Of a DNA stretch of 64,000 bases, positions 3,712 through 56,775 are shown one piece after another. The translations under genes were made by a program, and so were the position numbers. The notes under the pieces are model-generated. The model was not told the DNA's origin and made no database searches. It saw only the letters and a program-made list of their open reading frames with translations. Source of the DNA: Gammaproteobacteria bacterium (lineage in GTDB: Bacteria; Pseudomonadota; Gammaproteobacteria; JAURND01); NCBI GenBank assembly GCA_035546635.1, contig DASZWJ010000019.1, forward strand, positions 229,386 through 293,385. Reading direction: 5' to 3'. Positions within the stretch are counted from its first letter, which is position 1; each line of letters starts with the position of its first letter.

Positions 3712-5280
3712 ATGGAAACGGAAGCCTCATCTTCATCCTTTAAATCATCTTTACAGCTTGTCCAACCTCAAGATACCATTGCAGCCGAATCGACTACAGC
3801 GGCTCAACACCAACTACTTGAAATCACTACCCACGTTGCGGCTCAGCTTCGCCAATTGCTAGGTCGACCTTTACGCGTAGTGGATTTAGGATGTGATGAT
3901 GGTTTATTCAGCCTGCAACTTGCCTGCGAGGGCGATGAAGTCATAGGTGCTGACTCAAATCAAGCACACATCTTAACCTGCCAAGCACGGGCCAAAGAAC
4001 TTGGCCTCACCACAACTTTTGTGACAGCCGACATCAGTAATTGGCAGAATTGTGGGAAATCATTTGACCTGGCGCTGGCATTTAATTTGACGCAGTTATC
4101 TGATTTGACGAAGATAGAGAAAACTGTACAAGCTTTATCACAGCGGGCAACCATCGCACTGATTACATCGTCTTGGCAGAATACACAAGAGAATACTTCT
4201 AATCCATTACCAGCTAACCCCTTTCAATTACTTCGACCCTATGCCTATCTTGAAAAATTAACAGAATACCCATCTAGCGTCACTGACATTAAAAACCCTG
4301 TTTTTTTCTGCAGCAATGCCTATTGGTACGCCAAGGGGGCTATGCAACGTTTTGATTATTGGACAGAACAATCACGCCAACGCTTTGAAAAAGAAGTGCA
4401 TAATAATATTTATCCGCATCGGCAGACACGTCGTTACTATTTTAATGATACCCGGATGTTGAAGCATTATCGCTTAACTGGGGATAAAATTAAAAGCAAC
4501 CGCAATGAAATTCAAGCTGAAATTAATTTTATTAACAATAATATGGATAAAATTAACACACTACCACGTATGCAAGCTTACAATATAAGCGAAGATGATG
4601 CCTGGATGTTGCGAGAAAAATTTTCTGGTATTAGATTAAGTTGTGCCATTTCTGACGGCATGGATTATGACCCTAAAAAAATTCTGGTCAGCATTTTACA
4701 GCAGTTGGCCTTATTTGAGCGTCATGGTTTTTATCAGAATGATCTTAGGCCGTGGAATTTTATTTTATCTGAGAATGATACGATATTTTTAATCGATTAT
4801 GGCACTGTCAGCCAAACACCCCGCGATTCATTATCCAGAAAAAAAAGTGTATTCATGAGCTTTTTAGTGTTGGCTCATGAAATTATTTATAGAAAAGTGC
4901 TACTTGTCAGGCAATTCAGCCCAGTTTTTATAAGCCCAAGATATTTTCCTGACAATTATGCCACGTGGTTATACCATCTACTTAGTACTGATTTTAGTCA
5001 GTGGAGTTTTGCATTATTTTTAGAATTGCTTGACCGCAAAGAATTACCCGATAGACATTCTAGAACAGCAGCTAATAATATGCTGTTGTGGCTTGACGAA
5101 ATAGATCAGCACTTGGGCAATCCTAAATTTAAAATGCAGCATTTTCAAAAGTATTTTATTAAAAAATTACATCTGGAAGTTACTAAAGCTGGTTGGAAAA
5201 GCAAGCTTACTACCTTTGTAAATAAGTTTTTACTATTATTGCCGCGCTTTAACCAAAAACCTAATCCTGAGCTTGAGTAG
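3712..5280 (+). CDS. Bifunctional SAM-dependent methyltransferase / eukaryotic-like kinase fusion protein, WbdD-like architecture (paralogue A)
   Basis: The N-terminus carries methyltransferase motif I (LRVVDLGCDDG ... DEVIGAD) and a post-I acidic residue. The C-terminus carries a kinase catalytic loop HGFYQNDLRPWNF (HxDxxxxN) and a DFG-like IDYG. The RBS AGGGAG lies 9 bp upstream. It shares about 35-40% identity, at the same domain positions, with the ORF at 55198-56775. Confidence 0.6.
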   Translation: METEASSSSFKSSLQLVQPQDTIAAESTTAAQHQLLEITTHVAAQLRQLLGRPLRVVDLGCDDGLFSLQLACEGDEVIGADSNQAHILTCQARAKELGLTTTFVTADISNWQNCGKSFDLALAFNLTQLSDLTKIEKTVQALSQRATIALITSSWQNTQENTSNPLPANPFQLLRPYAYLEKLTEYPSSVTDIKNPVFFCSNAYWYAKGAMQRFDYWTEQSRQRFEKEVHNNIYPHRQTRRYYFNDTRMLKHYRLTGDKIKSNRNEIQAEINFINNNMDKINTLPRMQAYNISEDDAWMLREKFSGIRLSCAISDGMDYDPKKILVSILQQLALFERHGFYQNDLRPWNFILSENDTIFLIDYGTVSQTPRDSLSRKKSVFMSFLVLAHEIIYRKVLLVRQFSPVFISPRYFPDNYATWLYHLLSTDFSQWSFALFLELLDRKELPDRHSRTAANNMLLWLDEIDQHLGNPKFKMQHFQKYFIKKLHLEVTKAGWKSKLTTFVNKFLLLLPRFNQKPNPELE

Positions 5281-26320: not shown

Positions 26321-28120
26321 ATGTCGATTCCCTTTTTTGCACTGTTTTCGTCTAATCCCTCAAGCCTACTCAACCTATACAAAAGACTATTAACTTCAGT
26401 CAAACCCTACCGCTTGATCTTTTTACTGGGCATTCTAGGTACGGCTGCATCTTCTGGCATTGACGCTGGTCTGGCTTGGTTGATTAAGCCCATCATTAAT
26501 CACGGCCTAGTGGATAAAAACTTCCATTTTATCCGCATACTGCCGTTTGTGGTTATCCTGATCTTCATTCTGCGTGGTTTTGCCGTATTTATGTCCACTT
26601 ATTACATCGCCAAGGTCGGTAAAAGTGTCGTTATGGACTTCCGCCAGCAAATGTTTGCCCATATGCTCAGGTTACCAGCCAGTTTTTATGATACCCAATC
26701 CTCGGGGCAATTGCTTTCTCGCTTAATCTTTAATGTAGAACAGGTCACGGAAGCGACCACCAATGCCTTGATGATTATGGTGCAAGATGGGGTATTAGCG
26801 ATAGGTCTCATTGTCGTCATGATTTCCTTAAGTTGGCAGATGACCTTGATGTTTATGGTGATTCTACCGATGTTGAGTATCATGATTCGCTATACCAGCA
26901 AAAGAATGCGTCGGCTGAGTTTTAGCGTGCAAAAAGCGATGGGGGAAATTAGCCATATTGCCGAAGAGAGCTTTGAAGGTTACCGCGTGATTCGTACCTT
27001 TGGCGGTGAGGATTATGAAAATAACAAATTTGTCAAAGCTACTAAAGATAATCGTAGACGTGAAATGAAGATTGTCGCCACTAATGCCATCGGCACGGCT
27101 ACCACCCAAATTATTGTCTCGTTTGCAATTGCGCTCATTTTATTTCTAGCTACTTTGCCTCAAGTAGACATTTCACCTGGCACCTTTGCGGCATTAATAG
27201 CCTCCATGTTCGCATTATTACGACCCATACGGCGCATCACGCAAATCAATAACTCCATACAAAAGGGTGTTGCCGGCGCACAAAGTATTTTTGAAATACT
27301 CGATATTGAACCCGAAAAAGATACAGGGACTTTGACCGTACAGCGGGTTAAAGGAGCGATTGAATACCGCGACTTGCGCTTTACTTATCCTCATACTAAA
27401 AAGCAGGTACTGTCAGAAATAAATTTTCATATTAAACCTGGGGAAACTGTGGCCCTGGTCGGCCGTTCTGGCAGCGGCAAAACAACTTTAGTGAGTCTAT
27501 TGCCGCGGTTTTATGAGTTAGAAAAAGGCAGTATTTTAATTGATGGTGTAGACATCCGTGAGTTTCGTCTAGCTGATTTACGCAACCAGTTTGCATTAGT
27601 ATCGCAGCATGTCACTTTATTTAATGACACGATAGCGCGCAATATTGGCTATGGGCGACTCAGCGAGGTCAGTGAAGAGGATATTATACGTGCCGCTGAA
27701 GCAGCCCATGCCATGGATTTTATCCGTGAATTTCCTCAAGGCTTAAATACCCTGATTGGTGAAAATGGCGTGCTGTTATCGGGTGGTCAGCGGCAACGTA
27801 TCGCCATTGCTAGAGCGTTATTAAAAAATTCACCTATTTTAATTCTCGATGAAGCAACCTCATCCTTGGATACAGAATCCGAGCGACGGATTCAAGCAGC
27901 ACTCGATGACCTCATGCGTCATCGCACCACACTGGTGATAGCGCATCGTTTGTCGACTATAGAAAAAGCTGATCGCATTTTAGTGGTGGAGAAAGGCCGG
28001 ATTGTTGAAACCGGCACGCACGCTGAATTAGTGCGCAACAATGGCCATTATGCCTATTTACATGCACTGCAGTTCAAAGACGAGCCTGCCACCAGTGATG
28101 CTGAAGTTGTGGTCATATGA
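26321..28120 (+). CDS. msbA: Lipid A export ATP-binding/permease protein MsbA
   Basis: Six TM helices plus an NBD with Walker A GRSGSGKTT, signature LSGGQRQR and Walker B ILILDEATS. The conserved msbA-lpxK pairing is present. Confidence 0.88.
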   Translation: MSIPFFALFSSNPSSLLNLYKRLLTSVKPYRLIFLLGILGTAASSGIDAGLAWLIKPIINHGLVDKNFHFIRILPFVVILIFILRGFAVFMSTYYIAKVGKSVVMDFRQQMFAHMLRLPASFYDTQSSGQLLSRLIFNVEQVTEATTNALMIMVQDGVLAIGLIVVMISLSWQMTLMFMVILPMLSIMIRYTSKRMRRLSFSVQKAMGEISHIAEESFEGYRVIRTFGGEDYENNKFVKATKDNRRREMKIVATNAIGTATTQIIVSFAIALILFLATLPQVDISPGTFAALIASMFALLRPIRRITQINNSIQKGVAGAQSIFEILDIEPEKDTGTLTVQRVKGAIEYRDLRFTYPHTKKQVLSEINFHIKPGETVALVGRSGSGKTTLVSLLPRFYELEKGSILIDGVDIREFRLADLRNQFALVSQHVTLFNDTIARNIGYGRLSEVSEEDIIRAAEAAHAMDFIREFPQGLNTLIGENGVLLSGGQRQRIAIARALLKNSPILILDEATSSLDTESERRIQAALDDLMRHRTTLVIAHRLSTIEKADRILVVEKGRIVETGTHAELVRNNGHYAYLHALQFKDEPATSDAEVVVI

Positions 28121-29100
28121 ATACCTGGGTGAAGGCCTGGTATGACCGTCACCCTTGGCTCTATGCATTAACACCATTTGCCGCTATTTACTGCAGTGCA
28201 GCACAAATCAAACGTTACAGTTATCGAATTGGCCTAAAAAAAACCACGCAATTTGCAGTGCCTGTGATTGTAATCGGCAATGTTACCGTAGGTGGAACCG
28301 GTAAAACCCCATTAGTGATTGCTTTAGCGAAAATCCTCCTTGAACACGGATATAAACCTGGGATAGTCAGTCGTGGTTACGGTGGTCAAGCCGCAACGAC
28401 ACCACAATGGGTAACAGGAAATAGCAACCCTCTGGAAACTGGGGATGAGCCATTATTAATCGCACGGCATACCCTTTGCCCTTTAGTCATTGCCAAACAA
28501 CGTGTCTCGGCAATCACTACTTTACTCAATCATTACCCTTGCGATGTCATACTCAGCGATGATGGTCTGCAGCATTATGCTATGGGAAGGAGCATAGAAA
28601 TTGCTGTCATAGATGGGGTGCGGCGTTTTGGTAATGGTCTTTGCCTGCCAGCCGGTCCGTTACGTGAGCCCTTATCGCGCCTAAAACAAGTGGATTTTAA
28701 GGTGACTCAAGGCAACCCAGAACTGGGTGAATGGGCGATGCAATTGCTGCCGGGAACCATTTATAATCTCGCAAATCCAGAACAAAAATTGCATCCTCAT
28801 GAACATCTACCTCCTGTACACGCCGTAGCCGGCATAGGCAATCCGCAACGCTTTTTTACTCAGCTTGAACAACTGGGATTTACTGTTATTGCGCATCCAT
28901 TTCCCGATCATTATCATTTCCAGCCAGGTGATATTGATTTTGGTAAAAATGCCATCACCATTATGACTGAAAAAGATGCGGTGAAATGTGAAAAATTTGC
29001 GGATGAGCGGCATTGGTGTTTGCCAGTGACTGCACAATGTGATGCGGGTTTTATTAATTTACTGTTGGAAAAATTAGGCTGTCATCCTGGGCGTAAGTGA
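28117..29100 (+). CDS. lpxK: Tetraacyldisaccharide 4'-kinase LpxK
   Basis: P-loop VIVIGNVTVGGTGKTP, about 327 aa. Overlaps the msbA stop (ATGA). Confidence 0.9.
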   Translation: MNTWVKAWYDRHPWLYALTPFAAIYCSAAQIKRYSYRIGLKKTTQFAVPVIVIGNVTVGGTGKTPLVIALAKILLEHGYKPGIVSRGYGGQAATTPQWVTGNSNPLETGDEPLLIARHTLCPLVIAKQRVSAITTLLNHYPCDVILSDDGLQHYAMGRSIEIAVIDGVRRFGNGLCLPAGPLREPLSRLKQVDFKVTQGNPELGEWAMQLLPGTIYNLANPEQKLHPHEHLPPVHAVAGIGNPQRFFTQLEQLGFTVIAHPFPDHYHFQPGDIDFGKNAITIMTEKDAVKCEKFADERHWCLPVTAQCDAGFINLLLEKLGCHPGRK

Positions 29101-29122
29101 AGGATCTCCTGAAGGTAAAATA

Positions 29123-37296: not shown

Positions 37297-37482
37297 TATT
37301 TAAATTCCAGATTCAAATTATCAGCCTCAAGCAATCAGAGGTGAGTTGTAACTGTCATAAATGACAGGGTTAATAATTGCCTTCAGACGATACTTATTCT
37401 AAAGACCCGCATTTTTTAAAACTGAGATAACTGAAAATTATTTAGTCGTTGGCGCGAAATTCAAAAAATGCGCATCGTTCCA

Positions 37483-37562
37483 GCAGGAAGGCCGGATCCA
37501 GTCGCAGGAAAGCGAAACTTTAACTTCCCTGTCAACTGGATCCCGACTCCCTGCCGGGACGG
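37483..37562. repeat. REP-like palindromic element, family D (…GGAAGGCCGGATCCAGTCGCAGGAAAGCGAAAC…CTGGATCCCGACTCCCTGCCGGGAC)
   Basis: Inverted repeat with a GGATCCAG core. It overlaps the 3' end of cmk and so encodes the cmk C-terminal tail. A paralogous copy lies at 63455-63538. Confidence 0.65.
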
Positions 37563-38254
37563 CGCTTAATTGACGACCAAACTTGCAGTATACGCTCAAA
37601 AACTTGTTCAACCGTCAATTCAGTGGTATCAATTAAAATGGCATCCAGTGCCGGTATTAGAGGAGCTACGCCGCGCTGTTTATCACGTGTATCACGCTGT
37701 ACTAAATCCTGCAAAATGGCGTCAAGGCTAACATGTACTTCCTGGCTTTTCAACTGTGCAAAGCGTCTTTTTGCGCGTTCTTCTAAACTGGCTTGCAGAA
37801 AAATTTTCAGCTGTGCATCAGGGAATACCACAGTCCCCATGTCACGTCCATCCGTCACTAACCCAGGCCACCTGCGAAACATGCGTTGCCTGTCCAGTAG
37901 CGCAGTGCGCACAGCCGACAAGGCAGCAATCCGAGAAGCGGCATTGCCACAACTTTCACTGCGTATAGCAAAAGTGACATCTTGCCCTGACAAAAGGATT
38001 TTTATGGCGCCATTGGTTTCAATAAATTCAATGCTTAGATGATGCGCCAAATCCTGCAATTGCTGCTCACTACTTAAATCAATCCTACGTTCTAGTGCTG
38101 CATAAGCTAACAAACGATAAAGCGCGCCACTATCTAAGTAATGCCACCCCAACTTTTTAGCAATTAATTCGCCCACGGTTCCCTTGCCAGTACCACCTGG
38201 GCCATCAATAGCGATAACGGGTGGCAATTCACTCACTATATTACTTTTTTTCAT
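37532..38254 (-). CDS. cmk: Cytidylate kinase
   Basis: P-loop IAIDGPGGTGKGT and the Cmk fold, in the cmk-rpsA gene order. The start is set at MKKSNIVSELPPVIAIDG (38254). Confidence 0.88.
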   Translation of the reverse strand: MKKSNIVSELPPVIAIDGPGGTGKGTVGELIAKKLGWHYLDSGALYRLLAYAALERRIDLSSEQQLQDLAHHLSIEFIETNGAIKILLSGQDVTFAIRSESCGNAASRIAALSAVRTALLDRQRMFRRWPGLVTDGRDMGTVVFPDAQLKIFLQASLEERAKRRFAQLKSQEVHVSLDAILQDLVQRDTRDKQRGVAPLIPALDAILIDTTELTVEQVFERILQVWSSIKRRPGRESGSS

Positions 38255-44613: not shown

Positions 44614-44710
44614 AGCATTGTCATTCCCACCTAGGTGGGAATCTATCCTAATTTTGGCTAGATGCCAGAGAAGAATAGATTCCCGCCTACGCAGGAATGA
44701 CATGTTTTTT
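44614..44710 (+). terminator. Family-E palindromic element acting as a likely rho-independent terminator after msrA
   Basis: A perfect inner hairpin ATTCCCACC-TAGG-TGGGAAT is present. A second hairpin is closed by the outer stem TGTCATTCC/GGAATGACA and is immediately followed by TTTTTT at 44705-44710. Confidence 0.5.
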
Positions 44711-45645: not shown

Positions 45646-46956
45646 GTGCATATTCATTTTTGGAATCAGTTATCCGCAATAGAACAGCAAAATCTGCTGG
45701 AAAGACCTAAAGCCAGTCAACCTGACTCAATTCGGGAAAAAACCCAAGCAATTATCGATCAAGTAAGGGAAGAGGGCGATGCAGCGTTAATTGACCTCAC
45801 CGTCCTACACGACAAAGTAAAACTAACCCAATTAACCACTACTTTAGCGGAATTTTCAGCAGCAAAAAATCAAATCCGCAAAGAAGCGTTAGCCGCTATA
45901 GAGCGTGCACAACAGCAGATCACCACTTATCATCAAGCACAACAGCCTGAAATCCGCAAAATTGAAACTGCCCCAGGTATTTACTGTGAGCGTCAGCCAC
46001 GTGCCATTGACAGAGTAGGGCTTTATGTTCCAGGTGGCTCTGCCCCTTTGATTTCTACTTTGCTGATGCTGGCAATTCCAGCACAGTTAGCCGGTTGCTC
46101 ACTCAAAGTCCTCTGCACACCACCGAATAAAAATGGCACTATTGATCCACATTTGTTATATGCTGCAGAGCTGTGTGGTATTCAGCAAATTTTTAAAATC
46201 GGCGGAGCGCAAGCGGTCGCTGCGATGGCCTATGGCACTGAATCTGTACCGAAAGTTGATAAAATCTTTGGGCCAGGAAATGCTTTTGTCCTTGCTGCGA
46301 AAATGTTGGTTTCACAGGATGCCAAAGGTGCCAGTATTGATATGCCTGCTGGTCCATCAGAGCTCCTGGTGATTGCCGATGACAATGCCAATGCAGATTT
46401 TGTTGCTGCAGATTTGTTATCTCAAGCTGAACATGGGATTGATTCGCAAGTGATATTGCTGACCATGTCAGTAGATTTTGCTAACCAAGTTCATGGTGCG
46501 CTTAACCAGCAATTATCCCAGCTATCACGTCGCACAATTGCTGAGCAATCTTTAGCCCATGGCCGTATTATTGTCGTTACCTCTTTGGAACAAGCATTTT
46601 CTATTAGCAATCGTTATGCCCCTGAGCATTTAAGCTTACAAATAACCCACCCAGAGAACTTTCTCACAGAGATTCATAATGCAGGAGCCGTATTTTTAGG
46701 TGACTGGTCAGCTGAAACTATGGGAGACTATATCACCGGTTCTAACCATGTTTTGCCTACTTCAGGTTTTGCGCGCGCCTATAGTGGGTTATCTTTAGTG
46801 GATTTTATGAAGTTTATTAGTTTTCAAAAAGTCAGCCGCCCTGGGTTGCAAGCCCTTGGGCCATTTGCCGAACAATTGGCCGAGCTGGAAGGATTGGATG
46901 CTCACAGAAATGCGGTGTCTATTCGTTTGGGAGTTGACTTTCATCCTGAGCATTAG
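45646..46956 (+). CDS. hisD: Histidinol dehydrogenase HisD (GTG start)
   Basis: HisD conservation throughout, with RBS AGGTGG upstream of the GTG. The last five codons (…FHPEH*) lie inside the family-C repeat. Confidence 0.92.
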   Translation: MHIHFWNQLSAIEQQNLLERPKASQPDSIREKTQAIIDQVREEGDAALIDLTVLHDKVKLTQLTTTLAEFSAAKNQIRKEALAAIERAQQQITTYHQAQQPEIRKIETAPGIYCERQPRAIDRVGLYVPGGSAPLISTLLMLAIPAQLAGCSLKVLCTPPNKNGTIDPHLLYAAELCGIQQIFKIGGAQAVAAMAYGTESVPKVDKIFGPGNAFVLAAKMLVSQDAKGASIDMPAGPSELLVIADDNANADFVAADLLSQAEHGIDSQVILLTMSVDFANQVHGALNQQLSQLSRRTIAEQSLAHGRIIVVTSLEQAFSISNRYAPEHLSLQITHPENFLTEIHNAGAVFLGDWSAETMGDYITGSNHVLPTSGFARAYSGLSLVDFMKFISFQKVSRPGLQALGPFAEQLAELEGLDAHRNAVSIRLGVDFHPEH

Positions 46957-47033
46957 TGAAGGATCTCCTTATGGTGGCACTAGCCACATGAAGTACCACC
47001 ATAAGGAGATCCTTCGTTTACGCTCAGGATGAC
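46941..47033. repeat. REP-like element, family C (TCATCCTGAGC…GAAGGATCTCCTTATGGTGG…CCACCATAAGGAGATCCTTC…GCTCAGGATGACA)
   Basis: Near-perfect arms of more than 20 bp inside an outer TCATCCTGAGC/GCTCAGGATGA inverted repeat. It sits at the hisD/hisC junction. The left arm supplies the hisD stop codon. The right arm contains the spurious ATG at 47029. Confidence 0.75.
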
Positions 47034-47097
47034 AAAAAAATACAGCAACAGCCATATTAACAATTTAATACTTAAGAGCATCTTGAGTACACATATT

Positions 47098-48156
47098 ATG
47101 CCCAACCTAGCACATTTAATCAGACCTGACCTGCGCGAATTCACTGCCTACAGCTCGGCTCGTGATGAAGCTAAAAAGGGAGAGATTTGGCTCAACGCCA
47201 ACGAATCACCTTGGGAAAATGAGCATTTTGCCGAACAAAAAATTAACCGTTATCCTGAAAAACAACCACAAAAATTGATTAATGCGCTAGCTGAAATTTA
47301 CGGTGTTAAAAATAATCAGCTATCTGTATTGCGCGGTAGCGATGAAGCTATTGATCTATTGATGCGCTTATTTTGTGAAGCGGGAAAAGATGCCATTATC
47401 ACTTGTCCTCCGACTTTCGGCATGTATGCTGTCTATGCCAAATTACAAGGTGCAAAAATAATCGATATTCCTTTAGTGCCTGAAGCAGGTTTTCAATTGG
47501 ATATGAAAAATCTAGTAAACCAACAACACCTCGAAGTTAAATTGATTTTTCTATGTTCTCCAAATAACCCAACAGGTAATTTATTGTGCGAGGCAGATAT
47601 ACTACAATTATGCGAGCATTATGCCGGAAAAGCCGTGATTGTAGTTGATGAAGCTTACATAGAATTTTCCTCGGCAAACAGCCTGTCTCACTATATAGAC
47701 CAGTATGAAAATTTAGTGATCCTACGTACCTTGTCCAAGGCTTACGGATTGGCCGGTGCACGCTGTGGTTTATTATTAGGTCACAGCTTTATTATCAACT
47801 GGATAAAAGCGATTATGGCGCCTTATCCATTGCCGGCATTTACGATTCATGCCGTGACGCAAACACTCATGAAATTACAACGCCTTAAGCAACAGATTGA
47901 GACCATTAAAACGGAGCGCGAGCGTTTGGCTACTGAATTACAGCGACTGCCATTTGTTAAAAAAATCTGGCCAAGCGCGGCAAATTTTTTGTTGCTAGAA
48001 ACAGAAAATTCACAAAAAATTATGCAAGCGTGTATAGATTCCGGTATTGTACTACGCGATATGCACGGGAAATTATTTTTGCAAAACTGTATCCGAATTA
48101 CGGTTGGTACGCCTTTAGAAAATGCTCGCTTAATTGAATTTTTACAAACGTTATAA
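47098..48156 (+). CDS. hisC: Histidinol-phosphate aminotransferase HisC
   Basis: Class-II aminotransferase with the PLP lysine context YGLAGARCG. The start is set at MPNLAHLIRPDL (47098); the track start at 47029 lies inside the repeat. Confidence 0.88.
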   Translation: MPNLAHLIRPDLREFTAYSSARDEAKKGEIWLNANESPWENEHFAEQKINRYPEKQPQKLINALAEIYGVKNNQLSVLRGSDEAIDLLMRLFCEAGKDAIITCPPTFGMYAVYAKLQGAKIIDIPLVPEAGFQLDMKNLVNQQHLEVKLIFLCSPNNPTGNLLCEADILQLCEHYAGKAVIVVDEAYIEFSSANSLSHYIDQYENLVILRTLSKAYGLAGARCGLLLGHSFIINWIKAIMAPYPLPAFTIHAVTQTLMKLQRLKQQIETIKTERERLATELQRLPFVKKIWPSAANFLLLETENSQKIMQACIDSGIVLRDMHGKLFLQNCIRITVGTPLENARLIEFLQTL

Positions 48157-49242
48157 ATGAGTTTCTCAAACATGCCACAAGAAAAACTGCTTTTTATCGA
48201 CCGTGACGGGACTTTAATCGAGGAACCAGAAGATCAGCAGATCGATAGCATAGAAAAATTACATTTCCTGCCAGATGTCATTTCTAGTCTATTAAAATTA
48301 AAAACTGCCGGTTACAAATTTATTATGGTCAGCAATCAAGATGGCTTAGGAACTGATAGCTTGCCGCACGGAGATTTTCAGCCACCCCATGAATTAATGC
48401 TGCGTATTCTATCCTCTCAAGGCATTCATTTTGATGCCATACATATCTGCCCACATAAGCCGGACGCCAACTGTGACTGTCGCAAACCCAAAATCGGTTT
48501 ATTAGCGAATTATCTAATCGAACAAAAGATCAACCGTGAGCATTCTTATGTCATCGGTGATCGGCAGACTGATCTAGAATTAGCGCAAAATTTGGGAATA
48601 AAAGGCATCCGCATTCGCACCCCAACCACTCCAGGCTGGGCTGAAGTCGCTCACCAGATTCTATCTCAACCGCGGCAGGTGCAACTCATACGCAAAACTA
48701 AAGAAACTGCAATAGAAGTACAAATTGATCTTGATAAACCTAGTCCCATTCATATCCACACCGGTATCGGTTTTTTCGATCATATGCTGGAACAGTTAGC
48801 TAAACATGGTGGCTTCAGTCTAAAAATAACTGTTGCAGGGGATTTACATATTGACGACCATCATACCGTAGAAGATACGGCCATTACGCTGGGTGAAGCC
48901 ATGCGTGAAGCTTTAGGAGATAAAATAGGTATTGGGCGCTATGGTTTTTTATTGCCTATGGACGAAGCCTTAGCCAGGGTAGCCATTGATTTAAGTGGGC
49001 GCGCGCATTTAACTTTTAAAGCAGCATTTAACCGCGAGCGCGTGGGGGATTTATCCACGGAATTGGTAGAACATTTTTTCCGTTCTTTTGCCGAAGGATT
49101 AAAAGCGACATTGAATATTAAAGTAACAGGGGACAACACCCACCATATGATCGAATCAGTTTTTAAAGGCGTAGGGCGCGCCTTACGCCAGGCTATTGCT
49201 AAAACCGGGGATGATCTACCTAGCACTAAGGGTTTACTATGA
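48157..49242 (+). CDS. hisB: Bifunctional histidinol-phosphatase / imidazoleglycerol-phosphate dehydratase HisB
   Basis: N-terminal HAD phosphatase (LFIDRDGTLIEEP) and C-terminal IGPD (IGFFDHMLEQLAKHGGFSL…DDHHTVEDT). Confidence 0.92.
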   Translation: MSFSNMPQEKLLFIDRDGTLIEEPEDQQIDSIEKLHFLPDVISSLLKLKTAGYKFIMVSNQDGLGTDSLPHGDFQPPHELMLRILSSQGIHFDAIHICPHKPDANCDCRKPKIGLLANYLIEQKINREHSYVIGDRQTDLELAQNLGIKGIRIRTPTTPGWAEVAHQILSQPRQVQLIRKTKETAIEVQIDLDKPSPIHIHTGIGFFDHMLEQLAKHGGFSLKITVAGDLHIDDHHTVEDTAITLGEAMREALGDKIGIGRYGFLLPMDEALARVAIDLSGRAHLTFKAAFNRERVGDLSTELVEHFFRSFAEGLKATLNIKVTGDNTHHMIESVFKGVGRALRQAIAKTGDDLPSTKGLL

Positions 49243-49850
49243 TTGCGATTATTGATGCCTGTGGGGCTAATTTCGCTTCGGTGGAATTTGCACTTAAACG
49301 CTTGGGGCGAGCAGTGACGCTCACGCGAGATAAAGACATCATTCGCTCAGCATCACATGTAATTCTACCTGGCGTAGGCACTGCCAGCCAGGCTATGCAG
49401 CAATTGGAAAATTTACAATTAATTTCAGTGATTCAGCAATTAACGCAACCGGTATTAGGTATCTGTCTTGGCATGCAGATTTTACATGCCCATTCTGCTG
49501 AAGGCGATGTGGATTGTCTAGGCCTTTTGCCAGGGGATATTAAGCCATTGCCAGAAGATCAGGGTTTACCTATTCCACATATGGGTTGGAATCAGCTATG
49601 CATCTCCCATGCGACCAGTTCTTTACTGCAGGATATCCCGAATAATAGCTACGTCTATTACGTGCATAGCTATGCAGCGCCAGTGACTGAGCATACCCTG
49701 GCTACCACCCAATACGGTGCAATATTTACGGCAGCAGTACATTATAAAAATTTTTATGGGGTACAATTTCATCCTGAGCGTTCGGGAGCGGTTGGCGCTA
49801 AGATATTACAGAATTTTCTTGTCCTGAGCGAAAGCGAAGGATCTCCATAA
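49239..49850 (+). CDS. hisH: Imidazole glycerol phosphate synthase, glutaminase subunit HisH
   Basis: Class-I glutamine amidotransferase (catalytic Cys in GICLGMQ, HPE near the C-terminus). The final about nine codons and the stop (…VLSESEGSP*) are encoded by the family-C repeat. Confidence 0.9.
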   Translation: MIAIIDACGANFASVEFALKRLGRAVTLTRDKDIIRSASHVILPGVGTASQAMQQLENLQLISVIQQLTQPVLGICLGMQILHAHSAEGDVDCLGLLPGDIKPLPEDQGLPIPHMGWNQLCISHATSSLLQDIPNNSYVYYVHSYAAPVTEHTLATTQYGAIFTAAVHYKNFYGVQFHPERSGAVGAKILQNFLVLSESEGSP

Positions 49851-49913
49851 TGTGGCGCCTCATCATAAAAGTGCCATCATACGGAGATCCTTCGCTATCG
49901 CTCAGGATGACAG
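49821..49913. repeat. REP-like element, family C, second copy at the hisH/hisA junction
   Basis: TCCTGAGCGAAAGCGAAGGATCTCC…GGAGATCCTTCGCTATCGCTCAGGATGA, with arms of about 25 bp. It overlaps the hisH 3' end. Confidence 0.75.
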
Positions 49914-49932
49914 TCAAGGGAAATAAACCTCA

Positions 49933-50676
49933 ATGAAACTATACCCAGCAATCGATTTAAAATCAGGAACCTGTGTCCGCCTTTACAAAGGCTCTTTTGA
50001 CCATGTCACTGCTTATCAAGCATCCCCCTTATCTGTCGCTGAAAATTTTGCCAGTGAAGGCGCAGATTTTCTTCACATCATTGATCTAGATGGCGCTCAA
50101 GAAGGCACCTCCAAACATACATCGTTAGTCTTAGATATTATTGAGAAAACTAGATTGAGCATACAATTAGGTGGCGGCATTCGCAGCTATGCACAATTAT
50201 CCCAATGGTTACACAATGGCGTCACTCGCGTTATTTTAGGTAGCATCGCTCTGTCCGAACCCGAGAAAGTGAACATGTGGCTGCGTGAATTTGGCGCTGA
50301 ACGCATTGTATTAGCGCTAGATATTAGAATGAATAGCGCCAATGAACCCATATTGGCATCACACGGTTGGCAACAAAATAGCGGCATGAGTTTATGGCAT
50401 TTACTTGACCTATATCAGGACAGCCCATTAAAACATGTACTTTGCACGGATATTGATTGCGATGGCACGTTGGCCGGGCCCAATATTTCCCTCTATCAAC
50501 AATGTAGCCAACGCTACCCAAACCTTGATTTTCAAGCCTCAGGTGGGGTCAGCTCCTTAGCCGATCTACGCACATTAGCACAAATGCAAGTTTCCGGTGT
50601 CATTGTCGGCAAAGCACTTTACGAGCGGAAATTTTCTTTAAGTGAAGCATTAATTGAGCTCAGCCATGTTAGCTAA
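49933..50676 (+). CDS. hisA: ProFAR isomerase HisA
   Basis: [17 protein letters not shown]… TIM barrel, 247 aa. Confidence 0.9.
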
Positions 50677-54265: not shown

Positions 54266-55201
54266 ATGAATATATTTATACCTGCTGCGGGATTTGGTTC
54301 GCGCTTATCCCCCATTACCTCCCGTATACCTAAACCTTTACTGCCTATTGTTGGCAAACCCTTGCTAGGATTATCGCTGGAAAAACTCAACCGCCTTAAA
54401 CCTAATCAAATAGGTATAAATCTTCACTATCTGCGCGAAGCCTTAACCCAATGGGTTGCGCATTCGCCGTTGCGCAATAAAATACAGCTATTTCCAGAAG
54501 AAACGATTTTAGGTTCTGGTGGCGCACTGAACAATGCCTATTCTTTATTGTGCCAAGATCACTTTCTGGTTTATAACAGTGATGTGCTATGTGATCTAGA
54601 TTTAGAATGGTTAATGCAACAACATTTGAATTCTGAAAACCTAGTCACACTCACCACCTGTCAGCACCCTAAATTTCCTCATGTTAAAGCGAATGTTGCT
54701 ATTAATTCTGAAGGTTTTTTTCAAGGCGTTGACAAAAAGCTTATTCCTTACGCTAAAGTAGCACAATACGTGGCTTATACCAGTATCGCGATGTATTCCC
54801 CTGAGTTTTTACAATTTTTACCTGCAGGAAAATCCAGTGTGCTAGATGCCTGGTTGACAGTAGCCGCCAAAGGTTATCGCATCGGCACCGTAGATATCAG
54901 CGCTTATGACTGGAATGATATAGGCACTCCTGCCGCCTATTTCTCAGCTGCTATGACTAATTTAAAAAGTACTGGTAAATCGGTTTATATCCATCCTTCT
55001 GCCAATGTCAATCGCACTGCGGTCATAGAAGGAGAGGTGATTATTGAAAGATATGCGGTAGTCGAGTCGGGGGTCAGTATTAAAAACTGCTTACTGCTAC
55101 CTGGTGCTGAGTTAATAAAAAACCGGCGCTATGAAAATAGTATCATAGGGCCCGGTTATGAGCTGCCAATGCTGTCATCCTTCGCTTGCGCTCAGGACTA
55201 A
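54266..55201 (+). CDS. Sugar-1-phosphate nucleotidyltransferase (NTP_transferase domain plus C-terminal left-handed beta-helix)
   Basis: MNIFIPAAGFGSRLSPITSRIPKPLLPIVGKPLL is the RmlA/GlmU/MurU-type G-x-G-x-R-L…K motif. The C-terminus carries hexapeptide-like repeats. The gene lies 14 bp downstream of the DUF1343 gene, so the two are probably an operon. Confidence 0.75.
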   Translation: MNIFIPAAGFGSRLSPITSRIPKPLLPIVGKPLLGLSLEKLNRLKPNQIGINLHYLREALTQWVAHSPLRNKIQLFPEETILGSGGALNNAYSLLCQDHFLVYNSDVLCDLDLEWLMQQHLNSENLVTLTTCQHPKFPHVKANVAINSEGFFQGVDKKLIPYAKVAQYVAYTSIAMYSPEFLQFLPAGKSSVLDAWLTVAAKGYRIGTVDISAYDWNDIGTPAAYFSAAMTNLKSTGKSVYIHPSANVNRTAVIEGEVIIERYAVVESGVSIKNCLLLPGAELIKNRRYENSIIGPGYELPMLSSFACAQD

Positions 55202-56775
55202 GAAACCAACGGTCGATTAAGATAGCGCGAAAATTTAGAGAAGCGCACTAAAAATTTATTATACAGAAAAATATTTATTAATTTTTGCTGCAAAGTATTT
55301 TTTCTTGATTCTTGACTTAGCTTCTTAATAACTACTTTTTCAAAATATTTAAGCTTCATTTCCCTTTTTGCTATCAATCCTTCAATTTCATTTAACCAAG
55401 GTCTTAAAGAATTATTCAGTTCAGCTGAAATGATTTTCTGCTCACCCTCGTGAAATAGCTTTAAAAACAGGCTAAAACTCCATTGTTGCGGGTGTGTTGA
55501 TAATATTCCCTGAATTAAATTTAAATAAATATCAGGATAATTTTCTGCCTTTAAGAACATAGGGCTCAAATTCCTGATCGTGACTATTTTTCTGTGAGTT
55601 ACTTCATAGATAAATACTAAAAATGCTAGAAAAATATTTTTAGGCACCATCACATTACGTGCTGCATCTTCAATAGCGCCAAAATCAATGAGCCGTACCG
55701 AACCCTGGGTAGAAATCAGCACATTCCAAACGCGTAAATCATTATGATAAAGACCATGCGCTTCCAAGGCGGCCAATTGTTCCAGAATGTCACCAATAAT
55801 CACATTAGGGTCATAATCCAGTCCCTTGATTATCATGGTGCTTAATAAAATCCCAGGTATTTTTTCACGCAACACCCAACCGCTGTCTTCATGCATTTCA
55901 AAACCCAACAAGCGCGGCAATACATGAGTCACCGAAAATCCACTTTGCAAAAATTTTATTTCACCTACAAGTTCTTCACGGTTGCTCTCTGCTTCATCAC
56001 CTGAGAGTTGAAAATTTTTAAGCATCGTATTAGTGGTAAAATAATAACGTCGTGAGTCTTTATGTGCATCATTCGTAAATTCATGTGAAGTATTAGTCCA
56101 TGAATCAAAATGCGTTAGCTCTTCATTAATATACCAATAATGATTGCTGCAAAAATAGATAGGACGCTGAATTTTTGACAGGTGGGTATGATGGTGTGAT
56201 ATTTGCTGAAAATAAGCAAATTGATCCAATAATTCATAGGGCTGGTCCGGTAGGGAAGTAGCCCATTTTTCAGGCTCTTCTCTAAGAGCGGTTTCGATAA
56301 GACAGGCTGCCGTTCTTTGTGCTAAAAGGCCAATGAAATTTCGAGTAGTCTCAAATCCGATGTGATGACACAGATGATGAAAAACGCTAAGTCCTATGAT
56401 TAAATCAAACTCTTTAATGGGCAAAGCGTCAATTCCGGCTACACAGTCAGCAACTACAAAAGTCGCAGGCAAGGACAAGACTTTAGATAACTCTGTGCAA
56501 AGCTCCACATTTTGCGGAACTATATCAATACCATATACCTCATCACCAACAGCTGCCAGGTTAAAACAGAAGAAACCCTGAGCGCATCCTATATCTAAAA
56601 TCCGCAATGGACGCTGCAACTCAGAACGCAATTTATCAGCAACACTCTGTACGATCCACCATCTATCATAACAGCTGCGCGATGAATTCCCATCAAATTC
56701 ATTAAAACCATAAATTGGTTGATAGATTTCTGGCAAATTACCAATTAGATATTTTATCTGTGAGTTCGATTCCAT
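55198..56775 (-). CDS. Bifunctional SAM-dependent methyltransferase / eukaryotic-like kinase fusion protein, WbdD-like architecture (paralogue B)
   Basis: Methyltransferase motif I LRILDIGCAQG…DEVYGID and a kinase catalytic loop HGLYHNDLRVWNVLI with a canonical DFG (LIDFGAIED). It is collinear with the ORF at 3712-5280 (shared blocks FCSN.YWY, RRYYF, QWSF.LFL). It is AT-rich relative to the housekeeping neighbours. Confidence 0.6.
   Translation of the reverse strand: MESNSQIKYLIGNLPEIYQPIYGFNEFDGNSSRSCYDRWWIVQSVADKLRSELQRPLRILDIGCAQGFFCFNLAAVGDEVYGIDIVPQNVELCTELSKVLSLPATFVVADCVAGIDALPIKEFDLIIGLSVFHHLCHHIGFETTRNFIGLLAQRTAACLIETALREEPEKWATSLPDQPYELLDQFAYFQQISHHHTHLSKIQRPIYFCSNHYWYINEELTHFDSWTNTSHEFTNDAHKDSRRYYFTTNTMLKNFQLSGDEAESNREELVGEIKFLQSGFSVTHVLPRLLGFEMHEDSGWVLREKIPGILLSTMIIKGLDYDPNVIIGDILEQLAALEAHGLYHNDLRVWNVLISTQGSVRLIDFGAIEDAARNVMVPKNIFLAFLVFIYEVTHRKIVTIRNLSPMFLKAENYPDIYLNLIQGILSTHPQQWSFSLFLKLFHEGEQKIISAELNNSLRPWLNEIEGLIAKREMKLKYFEKVVIKKLSQESRKNTLQQKLINIFLYNKFLVRFSKFSRYLNRPLVS

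What the first reader, a model, noticed from the sequence alone, without database searches (positions are those of the whole stretch)
46941..47033. REP elements supply the C-terminal codons and stop codons of hisD, hisH and cmk, and create a spurious upstream start for hisC
hisD:
- Its last codons (…D F H P E H *) are encoded by TTTCATCCTGAGCATTAG.
- That stretch is the left arm of the family-C element.

hisH:
- It ends …VLSESEGSP* inside the second family-C copy (49821-49850).
- That is about nine residues beyond where HisH homologues normally end.

cmk:
- It ends …RRPGRESGSS* inside the family-D element (37532-37562).

hisC:
- The six-frame track start at 47029 (ATGACAAAAAAA) lies in the right arm of the family-C element.
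- The homologous start is at 47098.

Interpretation:
- Insertion of palindromic elements into the 3' ends of essential genes, with the element providing a new in-frame tail and stop, is an unusual and checkable form of gene remodelling.
- It also implies that these elements insert by targeting gene ends or terminators.
Basis: seen in the sequence. Interest (0 to 1): 0.5.

Follow-up and report, generated by a model that had tools for sequence, protein, structure and literature searches.

The report
Palindromic repeats rewriting gene ends
Short palindromic repeats (REP-type) sit on the last few codons of several housekeeping genes in this uncultured Legionella/Coxiella-like bacterium and supply new tails and stop codons; the effect is real but is an already documented side-effect of such repeats.

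Summary
hisD ends FHPEH* inside the left arm of a 96-nt palindrome (46938-47035). hisH ends VLSESEGSP* inside a second copy (49820-49913). cmk ends RPGRESGSS* in a family-D palindrome (37476-37561). An in-frame ATG at 47029 lies in the right arm, 69 nt upstream of the homologous hisC start (47098).

Orthologue comparison shows the tails are element-derived:
- A sister genome (HisD 75%, Cmk 80% identical) has native tails. It carries different palindrome families downstream of the stops at the same three junctions.
- More distant relatives have hisD/hisC and hisH/hisA overlapping by 4-17 nt (hisH/hisA up to a 7-nt gap), with no element.
- HisH and Cmk are about 6-8 residues longer than the mode. 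HisD is not longer; five codons were swapped.

Three more genes in the window do the same (lpxK, an NTP-transferase, an rluD-like gene).

The arms have the layout of CGTC/TGTC-tagged REP units arranged as inverted dimers. The literature already reports that REPs hug ORF 3' ends and often supply stop codons (Di Nocera 2013) and that MITEs fuse to ORFs (Delihas 2008). "Unusual" is therefore not supported, and targeting of gene ends is not shown. The one mildly new point is that different REP families repeatedly occupy the same his-operon junctions. Interest is low to moderate.

The parts
46938..47035 (.). Family-C palindromic element, copy 1. An inverted dimer of two TGTC-tagged REP-like units between hisD and hisC.
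   Evidence: Arms 46941-46981 / 46992-47032, 88% complementary. Fold -60.1 kcal/mol, z -12.1. Related copies at 29079, 49820 and 55172.
45646..46956 (+). hisD (histidinol dehydrogenase, 436 aa). Codons 432-436 (FHPEH) and the TAG at 46939-46956 are element-encoded.
   Evidence: Translation. Homology to orthologues and to PDB 1k75 ends at residue 428-429. The sister genome ends ...RLAAIDQVLNK*.
47029..47031 (+). In-frame ATG inside the right arm. It gives a 23-codon ORF extension of hisC and is most likely not used.
   Evidence: Orthologous HisC proteins start at the equivalent of 47098. The 375-aa form is absent from the public protein collection and the 352-aa form is present. The ATG is buried in the -60 kcal/mol stem and AGG abuts it with no spacing.
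47098..48156 (+). hisC (histidinol-phosphate aminotransferase, 352 aa) from its homologous start.
49239..49850 (+). hisH (203 aa). Residues V195-P203 and the TAA are element-encoded.
   Evidence: Orthologues end NFLxL(x)*. The tail after FHPE is 23 residues against a mode of 16-17 in 117 homologues. The PDB 4gud alignment ends at residue 196.
49820..49913 (.). Family-C element, copy 2, between hisH and hisA (hisA starts at 49933).
   Evidence: Arms 49822-49856 / 49873-49907, 86% complementary. Fold -59.3 kcal/mol, z -10.7. Identical in independent assemblies L140 and L141.
37476..37561 (.). Family-D palindromic element (a dimer of CGTC-tagged units) downstream of and overlapping cmk.
   Evidence: Arms 37476-37502 / 37535-37561. 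Fold -64.2 kcal/mol, z -8.6. Second copy at 63455-63537.
37532..38254 (-). cmk (cytidylate kinase). The last nine residues RPGRESGSS lie in the element arm and the TGA follows it directly.
   Evidence: Relatives at 87% and 80% identity end ...MQSIETMAVN* and ...MQQVEQRDV*. The tail after DTTxL is 27 residues against a mode of 20. The PDB 1kdo alignment ends at residue 219 of 234.
63455..63537 (.). Family-D copy 2, in a divergent intergenic region. It is not at a gene end.
   Evidence: Fold -58 kcal/mol, z -6.7.
29079..29116 (.). Single family-C unit (half element). lpxK (28117..29100) ends CHPGRK* inside it.
   Evidence: The Pfam LpxK match ends at residue 320 of 327.
55172..55205 (.). Collapsed family-C fragment. 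The NTP-transferase gene (54266..55201) reads through it as LSSFACAQD*. The convergent gene 55198..56775 (-) stops at its edge.
   Evidence: A 91%-identical orthologue (P0245, locus L017) stops right after ...LPM, nine residues earlier.
14635..14727 (.). Another palindrome, related to the CCCTCTCCCCTTGTGGGAGAGGG family. The rluD-like gene 13689..14651 ends ...GFLQP* inside its left arm.
44619..44702 (.). A further TGTC-tagged REP dimer, 16 nt after msrA and before hisG. It does not overlap a stop.
   Evidence: I6. The unit hairpin folds at z -3.0.

Best explanation
**Source (shown).** The window comes from an uncultured Legionellales/Coxiellales-like gammaproteobacterium.

**What the elements are (layout shown, family placement inferred).**
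- Its chromosome is peppered with several families of 80-100-nt palindromic elements.
- Each arm has the layout of a CGTC/TGTC-tagged REP unit: tag, a short stem that begins with A-T, a 4-nt loop, then a tail.
- The elements are inverted dimers of such units.

**What happened (sequence state shown, process inferred).**
- Copies have been gained and lost independently in sister lineages.
- They survive almost only right after stop codons or in the last few dispensable codons of genes.
- Where the junction fell just upstream of the native stop, the gene lost its last 0-5 codons and its stop. It now reads into the arm until the first in-frame stop.
- Element-encoded tails:
  - hisD: 5 residues.
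  - hisH: 9 residues.
  - cmk: 9 residues.
  - lpxK: 6 residues.
  - NTP-transferase: 9 residues.
- These tails lie beyond the conserved fold, so they are tolerated.
- They are neutral or slightly deleterious by-products, not an adaptation.
- In the his operon the insertions also broke ancestral overlapping, translationally coupled junctions: hisD/hisC by 8-17 nt and hisH/hisA by 4 nt.
- They incidentally created an in-frame ATG upstream of hisC.

**Likely consequence (inferred by analogy).**
- The stop codons now sit inside the 5' arm of hairpins of about -60 kcal/mol.
- Termination of the upstream gene must melt the hairpin.
- This may lower expression of that gene or alter mRNA stability, as described for E. 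coli REPs within 15 nt of a stop.
For: **Structure and repetition**
-.

**Tails are absent from orthologues**
- L001-L006 (58-62% identical HisD) have hisD/hisC overlapping by 8-17 nt. Their hisH/hisA junction runs from a 4-nt overlap to a 7-nt gap in L002-L006, and HisH ends NFLxL(x)*.
- Sister genome L013/L015 has native tails: HisD ...QVLNK*, HisH ...NFLELS*, Cmk ...QRDV*. Different palindrome families lie 4-45 nt after the stops at the same three junctions.
- Serine 197 of HisH uses AGC in the window but TCT in L013, so the shared 'LS' is not homologous DNA.
- A 91%-identical NTP-transferase stops 9 residues earlier.

**Tail-length statistics**

| Protein | Window tail | Homologues |
|---|---|---|
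| HisH | 23 | mode 16-17 |
| Cmk | 27 | mode 20 |
| HisD | 12 | range 5-16 |

**Beyond the conserved fold**
- Element-encoded residues lie past every alignment to solved structures.

**Mobility**
- Family C sits after yajQ and hisG in L013 but not in the window. It sits at hisD and hisH in the window but not in L013.

**REP placement**
- TGTC/CGTC tags, A-T-first stems, 4-nt loops and dimers match the description in PMC3733652.
- 14 of 15 palindromes in the window abut a gene 3' end and 6 contain a stop.
- Of 81 testable arms, 14% hold the stop of a long open frame and 30% have one within 60 nt upstream. Random positions give 7% and 8%.

**Independent assemblies**
- They agree with the window sequence.
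Against: - No empty-site allele of the very same species was found, so the exact insertion junctions and any target duplication are not defined.
- No transposase or RAYT is present among about 50 window ORFs scanned, so the means of mobility is unknown.
- The unit hairpin of family C is thermodynamically weak in the window copies (z about 0). The placement in the CGTC-REP group rests on layout, not on a curated model.
- Rfam has no matching family.
- Expression effects are inferred only by analogy with E. coli REPs.
- 'Neutral by-product' cannot be told apart from weak selection with these data.
Confidence: 0.85

Rival explanations
1. Active targeting. The elements are inserted by a machinery that recognises a feature of gene 3' ends, such as terminator-like hairpins, pre-existing REPs or stalled forks. 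Overlap with stop codons would then be a direct result of site choice, not of selection.
For: - The same junctions are hit repeatedly by different families. hisH|hisA is expanded in 4 of 9 related his operons by at least 3 families, and hisD|hisC in 2 of 9.
- cmk|rpsA holds different families in the window and in L015.
- Elements start 4-45 nt after stops in L013/L015.
- Stops are enriched about fourfold within 60 nt upstream of arms in metagenome loci.
Against: - In operons with overlaps or gaps under 10 nt, only these positions can tolerate an insertion, so selection alone predicts the same picture.
- Four of eight events at one of seven junctions is not significant (my estimate, about 0.13), and the window and L013 events may not be independent.
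- hisB|hisH, hisA|hisF and hisF|hisIE are never hit, which fits their overlaps being intolerant.
- One family-D copy lies in a divergent promoter region (63455-63537).
- No target motif was found. GTGGCAC is at chance level, and the similarity of the FHPE-coding motif to the REP head does not track occupancy.
Confidence: 0.25
2. Selected regulatory punctuation. The REP dimers are kept at hisD|hisC and hisH|hisA because the hairpins tune relative expression within the his operon by uncoupling translation, protecting upstream mRNA or creating processing sites. The altered tails would be a tolerated cost.
For: - The hairpins are very stable.
- They break translational coupling that is ancestral in relatives.
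- The same junctions are occupied recurrently.
- E. coli REPs within 15 nt of a stop lower translation of the upstream gene (reference 17 cited in PMC12306157).
Against: - Five of nine related operons work without any element at these junctions.
- Family, position and size differ between lineages.
- The same elements sit after unrelated genes all over the window.
- No terminator- or promoter-like signal exceeds chance.
Confidence: 0.12
3. The repeat arm derives from the gene end. The gene tail would be ancestral and the repeat copied from it, or the overlap would be a chance resemblance.
For: The REP head in one frame encodes (C/F)HPE, the same tripeptide as the catalytic FHPE motif of HisH 50 nt upstream. 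There is a 14 of 14 nt identity at 49767-49780.
Against: - No orthologue carries the tails.
- The arm motif occurs in more than 120 unrelated metagenome stretches, next to unrelated genes.
- The FHPE-coding sequence scores 11-14 of 14 in all Legionellales-like relatives whether or not an element is present.
Confidence: 0.02
4. Assembly or annotation artefact of a metagenome-assembled genome, such as mis-joins or collapsed palindromes at repeats.
For: The source is a MAG. Half copies (29079) and a collapsed copy (55172) could in principle reflect assembly problems.
Against: - Gene order is intact across both his junctions.
- Independent Logan assemblies from two other runs are identical across hisH-element-hisA.
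- The exact HisD, HisH, LpxK and NTP-transferase proteins recur on 2-4 contigs.
Confidence: 0.02

Closest known systems
CGTC/TGTC-tagged REPs and their dimers (Di Nocera et al. 2013, PMC3733652)
   Same: - Terminal (C/T)GTC tag.
- Stem of 8-9 bp starting with complementary A-T, and a 4-nt loop.
- Frequent inverted dimers that fold into large hairpins.
- Several families per genome.
[quoted passage not shown]
- Reported in Coxiella and Rickettsia.
- No dedicated transposase known.
   Different: - The paper's explicit stop-codon statement concerns the TAG of GTAG tags. Here the stops arise inside the unit (loop TAG, GTGAAGG variant) or in the dimer centre.
- The family-C unit stem has two G·A mismatches and is weak in the window copies.
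- These particular families and this organism are not described there.
REPINs, REP doublets forming hairpins mobilised by RAYT (Bertels & Rainey 2011, PMC3116915)
   Same: Two inverted REP units with a short spacer form the mobile unit. Distribution varies between close relatives.
   Different: - REPINs are GTAG-type and tied to a RAYT gene.
- No RAYT was seen in the window.
- The tag here is CGTC/TGTC.
E. coli REPs close to stop codons (reference 17 in PMC12306157; to my knowledge Liang, Rudd & Deutscher 2015)
   Same: A stable hairpin at or within 15 nt of the stop of the upstream gene. The predicted effect is ribosome stalling and lower output.
   Different: - Here the stop lies inside the 5' arm, so part of the hairpin is translated.
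- No expression data exist for this organism.
Rickettsia palindromic elements (RPE) and bacterial MITE-ORF fusions (Ogata 2000 as reviewed by Delihas 2008, PMC2229807)
   Same: Palindromic repeats of about 100 nt are translated as part of conserved housekeeping proteins. The fusions are tolerated because they lie outside the fold.
   Different: - RPEs are typically inserted internally and in frame, with the host protein resuming afterwards. Here only the extreme C-terminus and the stop are replaced.
- MITEs have target-site duplications and a parent IS, neither of which was seen here.

Membership tests
CGTC/TGTC-tagged REP (Di Nocera 2013) | CGTC (often TGTC) tetranucleotide at one end of each unit | tested here: met
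   - Family C: TGTC at 29080, at 49820, and on the reverse strand at 47034 and 49913. The unit at 46939 has the degenerate form TTTC.
- Family D: CGTC at 37561 (minus strand) and at 63451.
- The 44619 element has TGTC at both ends.
CGTC/TGTC-tagged REP (Di Nocera 2013) | Unit is a short imperfect palindrome: stem of 8-9 bp starting with complementary A-T, loop of 4-5 nt | tested here: inconclusive
   - The layout fits: AT-CCTGAGC-GNAA-GCGAAGG-AT.
- The family-C consensus folds only to -3.7 kcal/mol (z -1.35), and the window copies are no better than shuffles.
- The family-D unit (z -3.1) and the 44619 unit (z -3.0) fold clearly.
CGTC/TGTC-tagged REP (Di Nocera 2013) | Units commonly paired in opposite orientation as dimers able to form larger hairpins | tested here: met
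   - Dimers at 46938-47035, 49820-49913, 37476-37561, 63455-63537 and 44619-44702.
- Singletons at 29079 and 55172.
CGTC/TGTC-tagged REP (Di Nocera 2013) | Predominantly downstream of ORFs, close to the 3' end | tested here: met
   - 14 of 15 palindromes in the window abut a gene 3' end, from 74 nt downstream to 31 nt inside; 6 contain the stop.
- Metagenome arms: 44% have a long-ORF stop inside or within 60 nt upstream, against 15% for random positions.
CGTC/TGTC-tagged REP (Di Nocera 2013) | High copy number per genome | not testable with these tools
   Only 64 kb of this genome was available. It holds four family-C and two family-D copies.
REPIN / RAYT system | Cognate RAYT (Y1 HUH transposase) gene flanked by the REPs; GTAG-type unit | tested here: not met
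   - No Y1_Tnp or other transposase domain in about 50 window ORFs.
- The tag is CGTC/TGTC, not GTAG.
- The rest of the genome was not examined.
MITE | Terminal inverted repeats, size 50-500 bp, non-coding, variable presence between relatives | tested here: met
   sites filled in L013 are empty in the window, and vice versa.
MITE | Target-site duplication and a parent IS sharing the TIRs | tested here: inconclusive
   - No duplication is visible at the four complete family-C copies (window x2, L013 x2).
- No same-species empty site is available.
- A parent IS was not searched for genome-wide.
Rickettsia palindromic element (RPE)-type in-frame insertion | Element translated internally, with host protein sequence resuming downstream | tested here: not met
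   In all six cases the ORF terminates within the element and nothing resumes.

The most novel reading that the evidence does not exclude
REP dimers may not be scattered passively. Particular intercistronic junctions would then be recurrent landing or replacement sites for different REP families. hisH|hisA is occupied in 4 of 9 related operons by at least 3 families. hisD|hisC and cmk|rpsA hold different families in sister genomes. This would imply that REP insertion is directed at a feature of certain gene ends or at resident REPs, and that the hairpins serve as selected punctuation that uncouples translation inside a biosynthetic operon.
Probability: 0.15. Interest if true: 0.5.

Novelty: new member of a known kind. 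Interest (0 to 1): 0.2.

Why it matters
- **Annotation.** In REP-rich uncultured Legionellales-like genomes, the last 5-10 residues of conserved enzymes (HisD, HisH, Cmk, LpxK and others) can be repeat-derived. ORF-extension starts such as 47029 are spurious.
- **REP biology.** The window gives a clean comparative series of the same junction in three states: empty, filled after the stop, and filled before the stop. This shows how REP turnover erodes and rebuilds gene ends and breaks translational coupling in an operon.
- **Limits.** It does not reveal a new kind of element or mechanism.

Tried and rejected
- **Shared spacers.** I asked whether the spacers between the elements and the downstream starts are homologous between the window and the sister genome, which would indicate one ancient insertion site. 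They are not significantly similar (P about 0.5). The rpsA leader, used as a control, is similar.
- **Stops in every frame.** I tested the idea that the elements carry early stops in all frames, which would make any insertion benign. This is false: several frames are open across the whole element. L001 shows a 34-residue HisH extension.
- **FHPE motif as target.** The HisH FHPE-coding motif is identical to the REP head over 14 nt. I considered it as a possible target or origin. The similarity is 11-14 of 14 in the related Legionellales-like genomes and does not track occupancy.
- **GTGGCAC motif.** It occurs in the centres of family C, at the ends of the L013 family and in the empty hisG|hisD spacer. 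I considered it as a target motif. It gives 5 hits against 4.85 expected, and AGTGGCAC gives 0.
- **Rfam.** The only match at the gathering threshold is a TPP riboswitch; nothing matches the elements.
- **Promoter and terminator scan of the his region.** Counts equal those of shuffles, and no terminator-like site lies at the elements.
- **Literature search for the arm sequence or its peptide.** Nothing relevant was found.
- **Transposase or RAYT in the window.** None was found.
- **Same-species empty site.** No hit lay between 100% and 75% identity for HisD or HisH. The DNA of the 87% Cmk relative could not be fetched.
Full report
**1. Is the observation in the sequence?**

Yes. At 46938-47035 there is a 96-98-nt palindrome.
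- Its arms are 46941-46981 and 46992-47032: 41 nt, 88% complementary, with a 10-nt loop.
- As RNA it folds to -60.1 kcal/mol (z = -12.1; none of 200 shuffles does as well).

hisD (45646..46956) ends ...AVSIRLGVD|FHPEH*. Codon F432 (46939-46941) is the first element position, and the TAG (46954-46956) lies 13-15 nt into the left arm.

The whole element recurs at 49814-49917 (104 nt, 78%).
- Its arms are 49822-49856 and 49873-49907; the fold is -59.3 kcal/mol (z = -10.7).
- hisH (49239..49850) ends ...QNFL|VLSESEGSP*. The element starts at the third base of the L194 codon.

cmk is on the minus strand with its stop at 37532-37534. It ends ...SSIKR|RPGRESGSS*. It reads through arm 37535-37561 of a different palindrome, family D.
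- Family D has arms of 27 nt, 81% complementary, and folds to -64.2 kcal/mol (z = -8.6).
- A second copy lies at 63455-63537 (85% over 60 nt).

ATG 47029 lies in the right arm of the first element. It is in frame with ATG 47098, with 23 open codons between them.

The stretch is not an assembly artefact. Independent Logan assemblies of two other runs match the window with 0 and 2 mismatches, including 160 nt across hisH-element-hisA.

**2. Are the tails element-derived?**

A scan of species-representative genomes found no close relative. It did find six Legionellales/Coxiellaceae-like MAGs with 58-62% identical HisD (L001-L006).
- In all six, hisD and hisC overlap by 8-17 nt (for example ATGAGTAG). 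HisC begins M-x-x-[IV]-x-x-L-I-R-x-D-L.
- That start aligns exactly with MPNLAHLIRPDL from 47098.
- In five of the six (L002-L006), hisH and hisA overlap by 4 nt or are up to 7 nt apart, and HisH ends NFLxL(x)*.

A protein search found a sister genome with HisD 75%, HisH 73% and Cmk 80% identical (a 780-kb contig; loci L013 and L015).
- There HisD ends ...RLAAIDQVLNK*, HisH ends ...NFLELS* and Cmk ends ...IMQQVEQRDV*.
- All three junctions are nevertheless expanded: hisD|hisC by 187 nt, hisH|hisA by 202 nt and cmk|rpsA by 335 nt.
- They contain palindromes of other families, beginning 35, 4 and about 45 nt after the native stops.
- The window's hisD diverges from L013 immediately after the shared D431 codon, exactly where the element starts.
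- The 'LS' shared by the two HisH tails uses AGC in the window and TCT in L013. It is therefore coincidence, not homology.
- An 87%-identical Cmk from another sample ends ...IMQSIETMAVN*.

Tail lengths, measured from a conserved anchor over the best 104-117 homologues:

| Protein | Window tail (residues) | Homologues | Window's position |
|---|---|---|---|
| HisH | 23 | mode 16-17 | only 7 of 117 are as long or longer |
| Cmk | 27 | mode 20 | only 3 of 104 are as long or longer |
| HisD | 12 | range 5-16 | mid-range |

So HisH and Cmk are lengthened by about 6-8 residues. In HisD five native codons were simply exchanged for five element codons.

Alignments to solved structures end at HisH residue 196, HisD residue 429 and Cmk residue 219. 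All element-encoded residues therefore lie beyond the conserved fold.

**3. The phenomenon is wider in the window.**

About 15 palindromic elements of several families are present.
- Fourteen abut the 3' end of at least one gene.
- Six contain a stop codon.

Besides hisD, hisH and cmk, the six include:
- lpxK (28117..29100), which ends CHPGRK* in a single family-C unit at 29079-29116. The Pfam LpxK match ends at residue 320 of 327.
- An NTP-transferase (54266..55201), which reads LSSFACAQD* through a collapsed family-C fragment at 55172-55205.
- An rluD-like gene (13689..14651), which ends inside palindrome 14635-14727.

For the NTP-transferase there is a 91%-identical orthologue that stops right after ...LPM, nine residues earlier. 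This is the closest available natural control.

**4. What the elements are.**

Each arm has the same layout.
- Family C: (C/T)GTC - AT - CCTGAGC - GNAA - GCGAAGG - AT - CTCC.
- Family D: CGTC - TCCCGGC - AGGA - GCCGGGA.
- The element at 44619-44702: TGTC - ATTCCCAC - CTAG - GTGGGAAT.

This matches the published description of CGTC-tagged REPs (Di Nocera et al. 2013, PMC3733652).
- The tag is often changed to TGTC.
- Stems are 8-9 bp and begin with complementary A-T; loops are 4-5 nt.
- Units are mostly arranged as dimers that can form larger hairpins.
- The group is present in Coxiella burnetii and, as RPE-4 and RPE-6, in Rickettsia.
- No dedicated transposase is known.

One caveat applies. 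The family-C unit hairpin is weak: the consensus gives -3.7 kcal/mol (z -1.35), and the window copies are no better than shuffles. The family-D and 44619 units fold clearly (z about -3).

The arm motif is extremely widespread. The motif occurs there as singletons, inverted dimers and tandem arrays.

Other checks gave nothing:
- Rfam has no model for these elements.
- No transposase or RAYT is encoded among about 50 window ORFs.
- No target-site duplication is visible at the four complete family-C copies.

The elements turn over between lineages.
- Family C sits after yajQ and 8 nt after hisG in L013, where the window has no element.
- It sits at hisD and hisH in the window, where L013 has another family.

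**5. How it most likely works.**

Shown:
- The sequence state described above.
- Its absence from relatives.
- The breaking of ancestral overlaps.
- The position of the stops inside very stable hairpins.

Inferred:
- REP units or dimers are inserted, or generated, by an unknown mechanism.
- In this compact genome only copies in intercistronic spacers or in dispensable C-terminal codons survive.
- When the junction lies upstream of the native stop, the ORF runs on to the first in-frame stop in the element.

The elements do not carry stops in all frames, so long extensions are possible. One is seen in relative L001, where a different REP (GTCATTGCGAG type) adds 34 residues to HisH.

Further inference by analogy:
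- E. coli REPs within 15 nt of a stop codon stall ribosomes and lower translation of the upstream gene (reference 17 cited in PMC12306157; to my knowledge Liang, Rudd & Deutscher 2015).
- Here the stops sit inside the 5' arm, so a similar or stronger effect is plausible.
- HisH and the rluD-like protein also end in Pro-stop. From general knowledge, this slows termination.

The hisC ATG at 47029 is unlikely to be used.
- It is buried in the stem.
- AGG abuts it with no spacing.
- It has no counterpart in orthologues.
- The public annotation uses 47098.

**6. Targeting or selection?**

Across nine related his operons the junction gaps are as follows:

| Junction | Expanded in |
|---|---|
| hisG\|hisD | L013 only |
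| hisD\|hisC | window and L013 |
| hisC\|hisB | L001 only |
| hisH\|hisA | window, L013, L018 and L001 |
| hisB\|hisH, hisA\|hisF, hisF\|hisIE | never |

- At hisH|hisA at least three different families are involved.
- L018 is only 59% identical in HisH. It carries a 246-nt nest of family-C units there, and its HisH ends KMCHPEA* in the same frame as hisD here.

This recurrence is suggestive. However, four of eight events at one of seven junctions is not significant (my estimate, about 0.13). The never-hit junctions are overlaps, mostly long ones of 14-23 nt, that would not tolerate insertion.

In the metagenome sample, 30% of arms have the stop of a long ORF within 60 nt upstream and 14% have one inside. 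Random positions in the same loci give 8% and 7%. This confirms the association with 3' ends but does not separate targeting from selection.

**7. Comparison with what is known, and novelty.**

[quoted passage not shown] - Delihas (PMC2229807) reviews in-frame fusions of MITEs and RPEs with conserved protein genes.
- REPINs (PMC3116915) are inverted REP doublets that act as the mobile unit.

The finding is thus a correct and well-documented new instance of a known phenomenon, in an undescribed organism with undescribed REP families. The only mildly new aspect is the comparative series showing repeated colonisation of the same operon junctions by different families.

**Verdict.** Interest is about 0.2.

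Noticed in passing
window 49767-49780 compared with 46939-46952: The DNA encoding the catalytic FHPE(R) motif of HisH (TTTCATCCTGAGCG) is identical over 14 nt to the head of the REP unit at the hisD end. In that frame the REP head encodes (C/F)HPE. Across the related Legionellales-like genomes the motif scores 11-14 of 14 regardless of whether an element is present, so it looks like coincidence.
   Followed up: yes
L001 14265-14361 and 12380-12570: In a relative with 60% identical HisD, a different REP family (GTCATTGCGAG...CTCGCAATGAC) extends HisH by 34 residues (...SPSLRGREALGRGNPEILDCHAPQKARGSQ*). More copies of that family fill a 212-nt gap between hisC and hisB.
   Followed up: partly
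L018 6595-6810: In a genome with 59% identical HisH, the hisH|hisA junction holds a 246-nt nest of at least four family-C-like units. HisH ends KMCHPEA*, in the same element frame that hisD uses in the window.
   Followed up: partly
window 55172-55205: The family-C fragment looks like a dimer collapsed between the two ATCCT repeats (TGTCATCC|TTCGCTTGCGCTCAGGAC). Such a deletion would have removed the TGA of TCCTGAGC and lengthened the NTP-transferase tail from 3 to 9 residues. Two convergent genes (54266..55201 on + and 55198..56775 on -) overlap by 4 nt here.
   Followed up: partly
window 14810-14916: A TPP riboswitch (Rfam RF00059, 74.2 bits) lies upstream of thiC (14998..16743). thiO-like, thiG and thiD/thiE genes follow.
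   Followed up: no
window 38236-38254: The public annotation starts Cmk at GTG 38236 (234 aa). The two closest relatives begin MKK..., matching ATG 38254 (240 aa), so the annotated start is probably six codons short.
   Followed up: partly
window 3712..5280 and 55198..56775 (-): Two proteins of about 522-525 aa have an N-terminal SAM-methyltransferase domain. The second also has a sub-threshold protein-kinase-like match (30.1 bits against a cutoff of 31.7). L013 carries a syntenic counterpart. Their function is unknown.
   Followed up: no
L013 9660-10001: In the sister genome the hisG|hisD junction, which is 8 nt in the window, is expanded to 340 nt by three different palindromic elements in a row. 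A family-C dimer there starts 8 nt after the hisG stop.
   Followed up: partly
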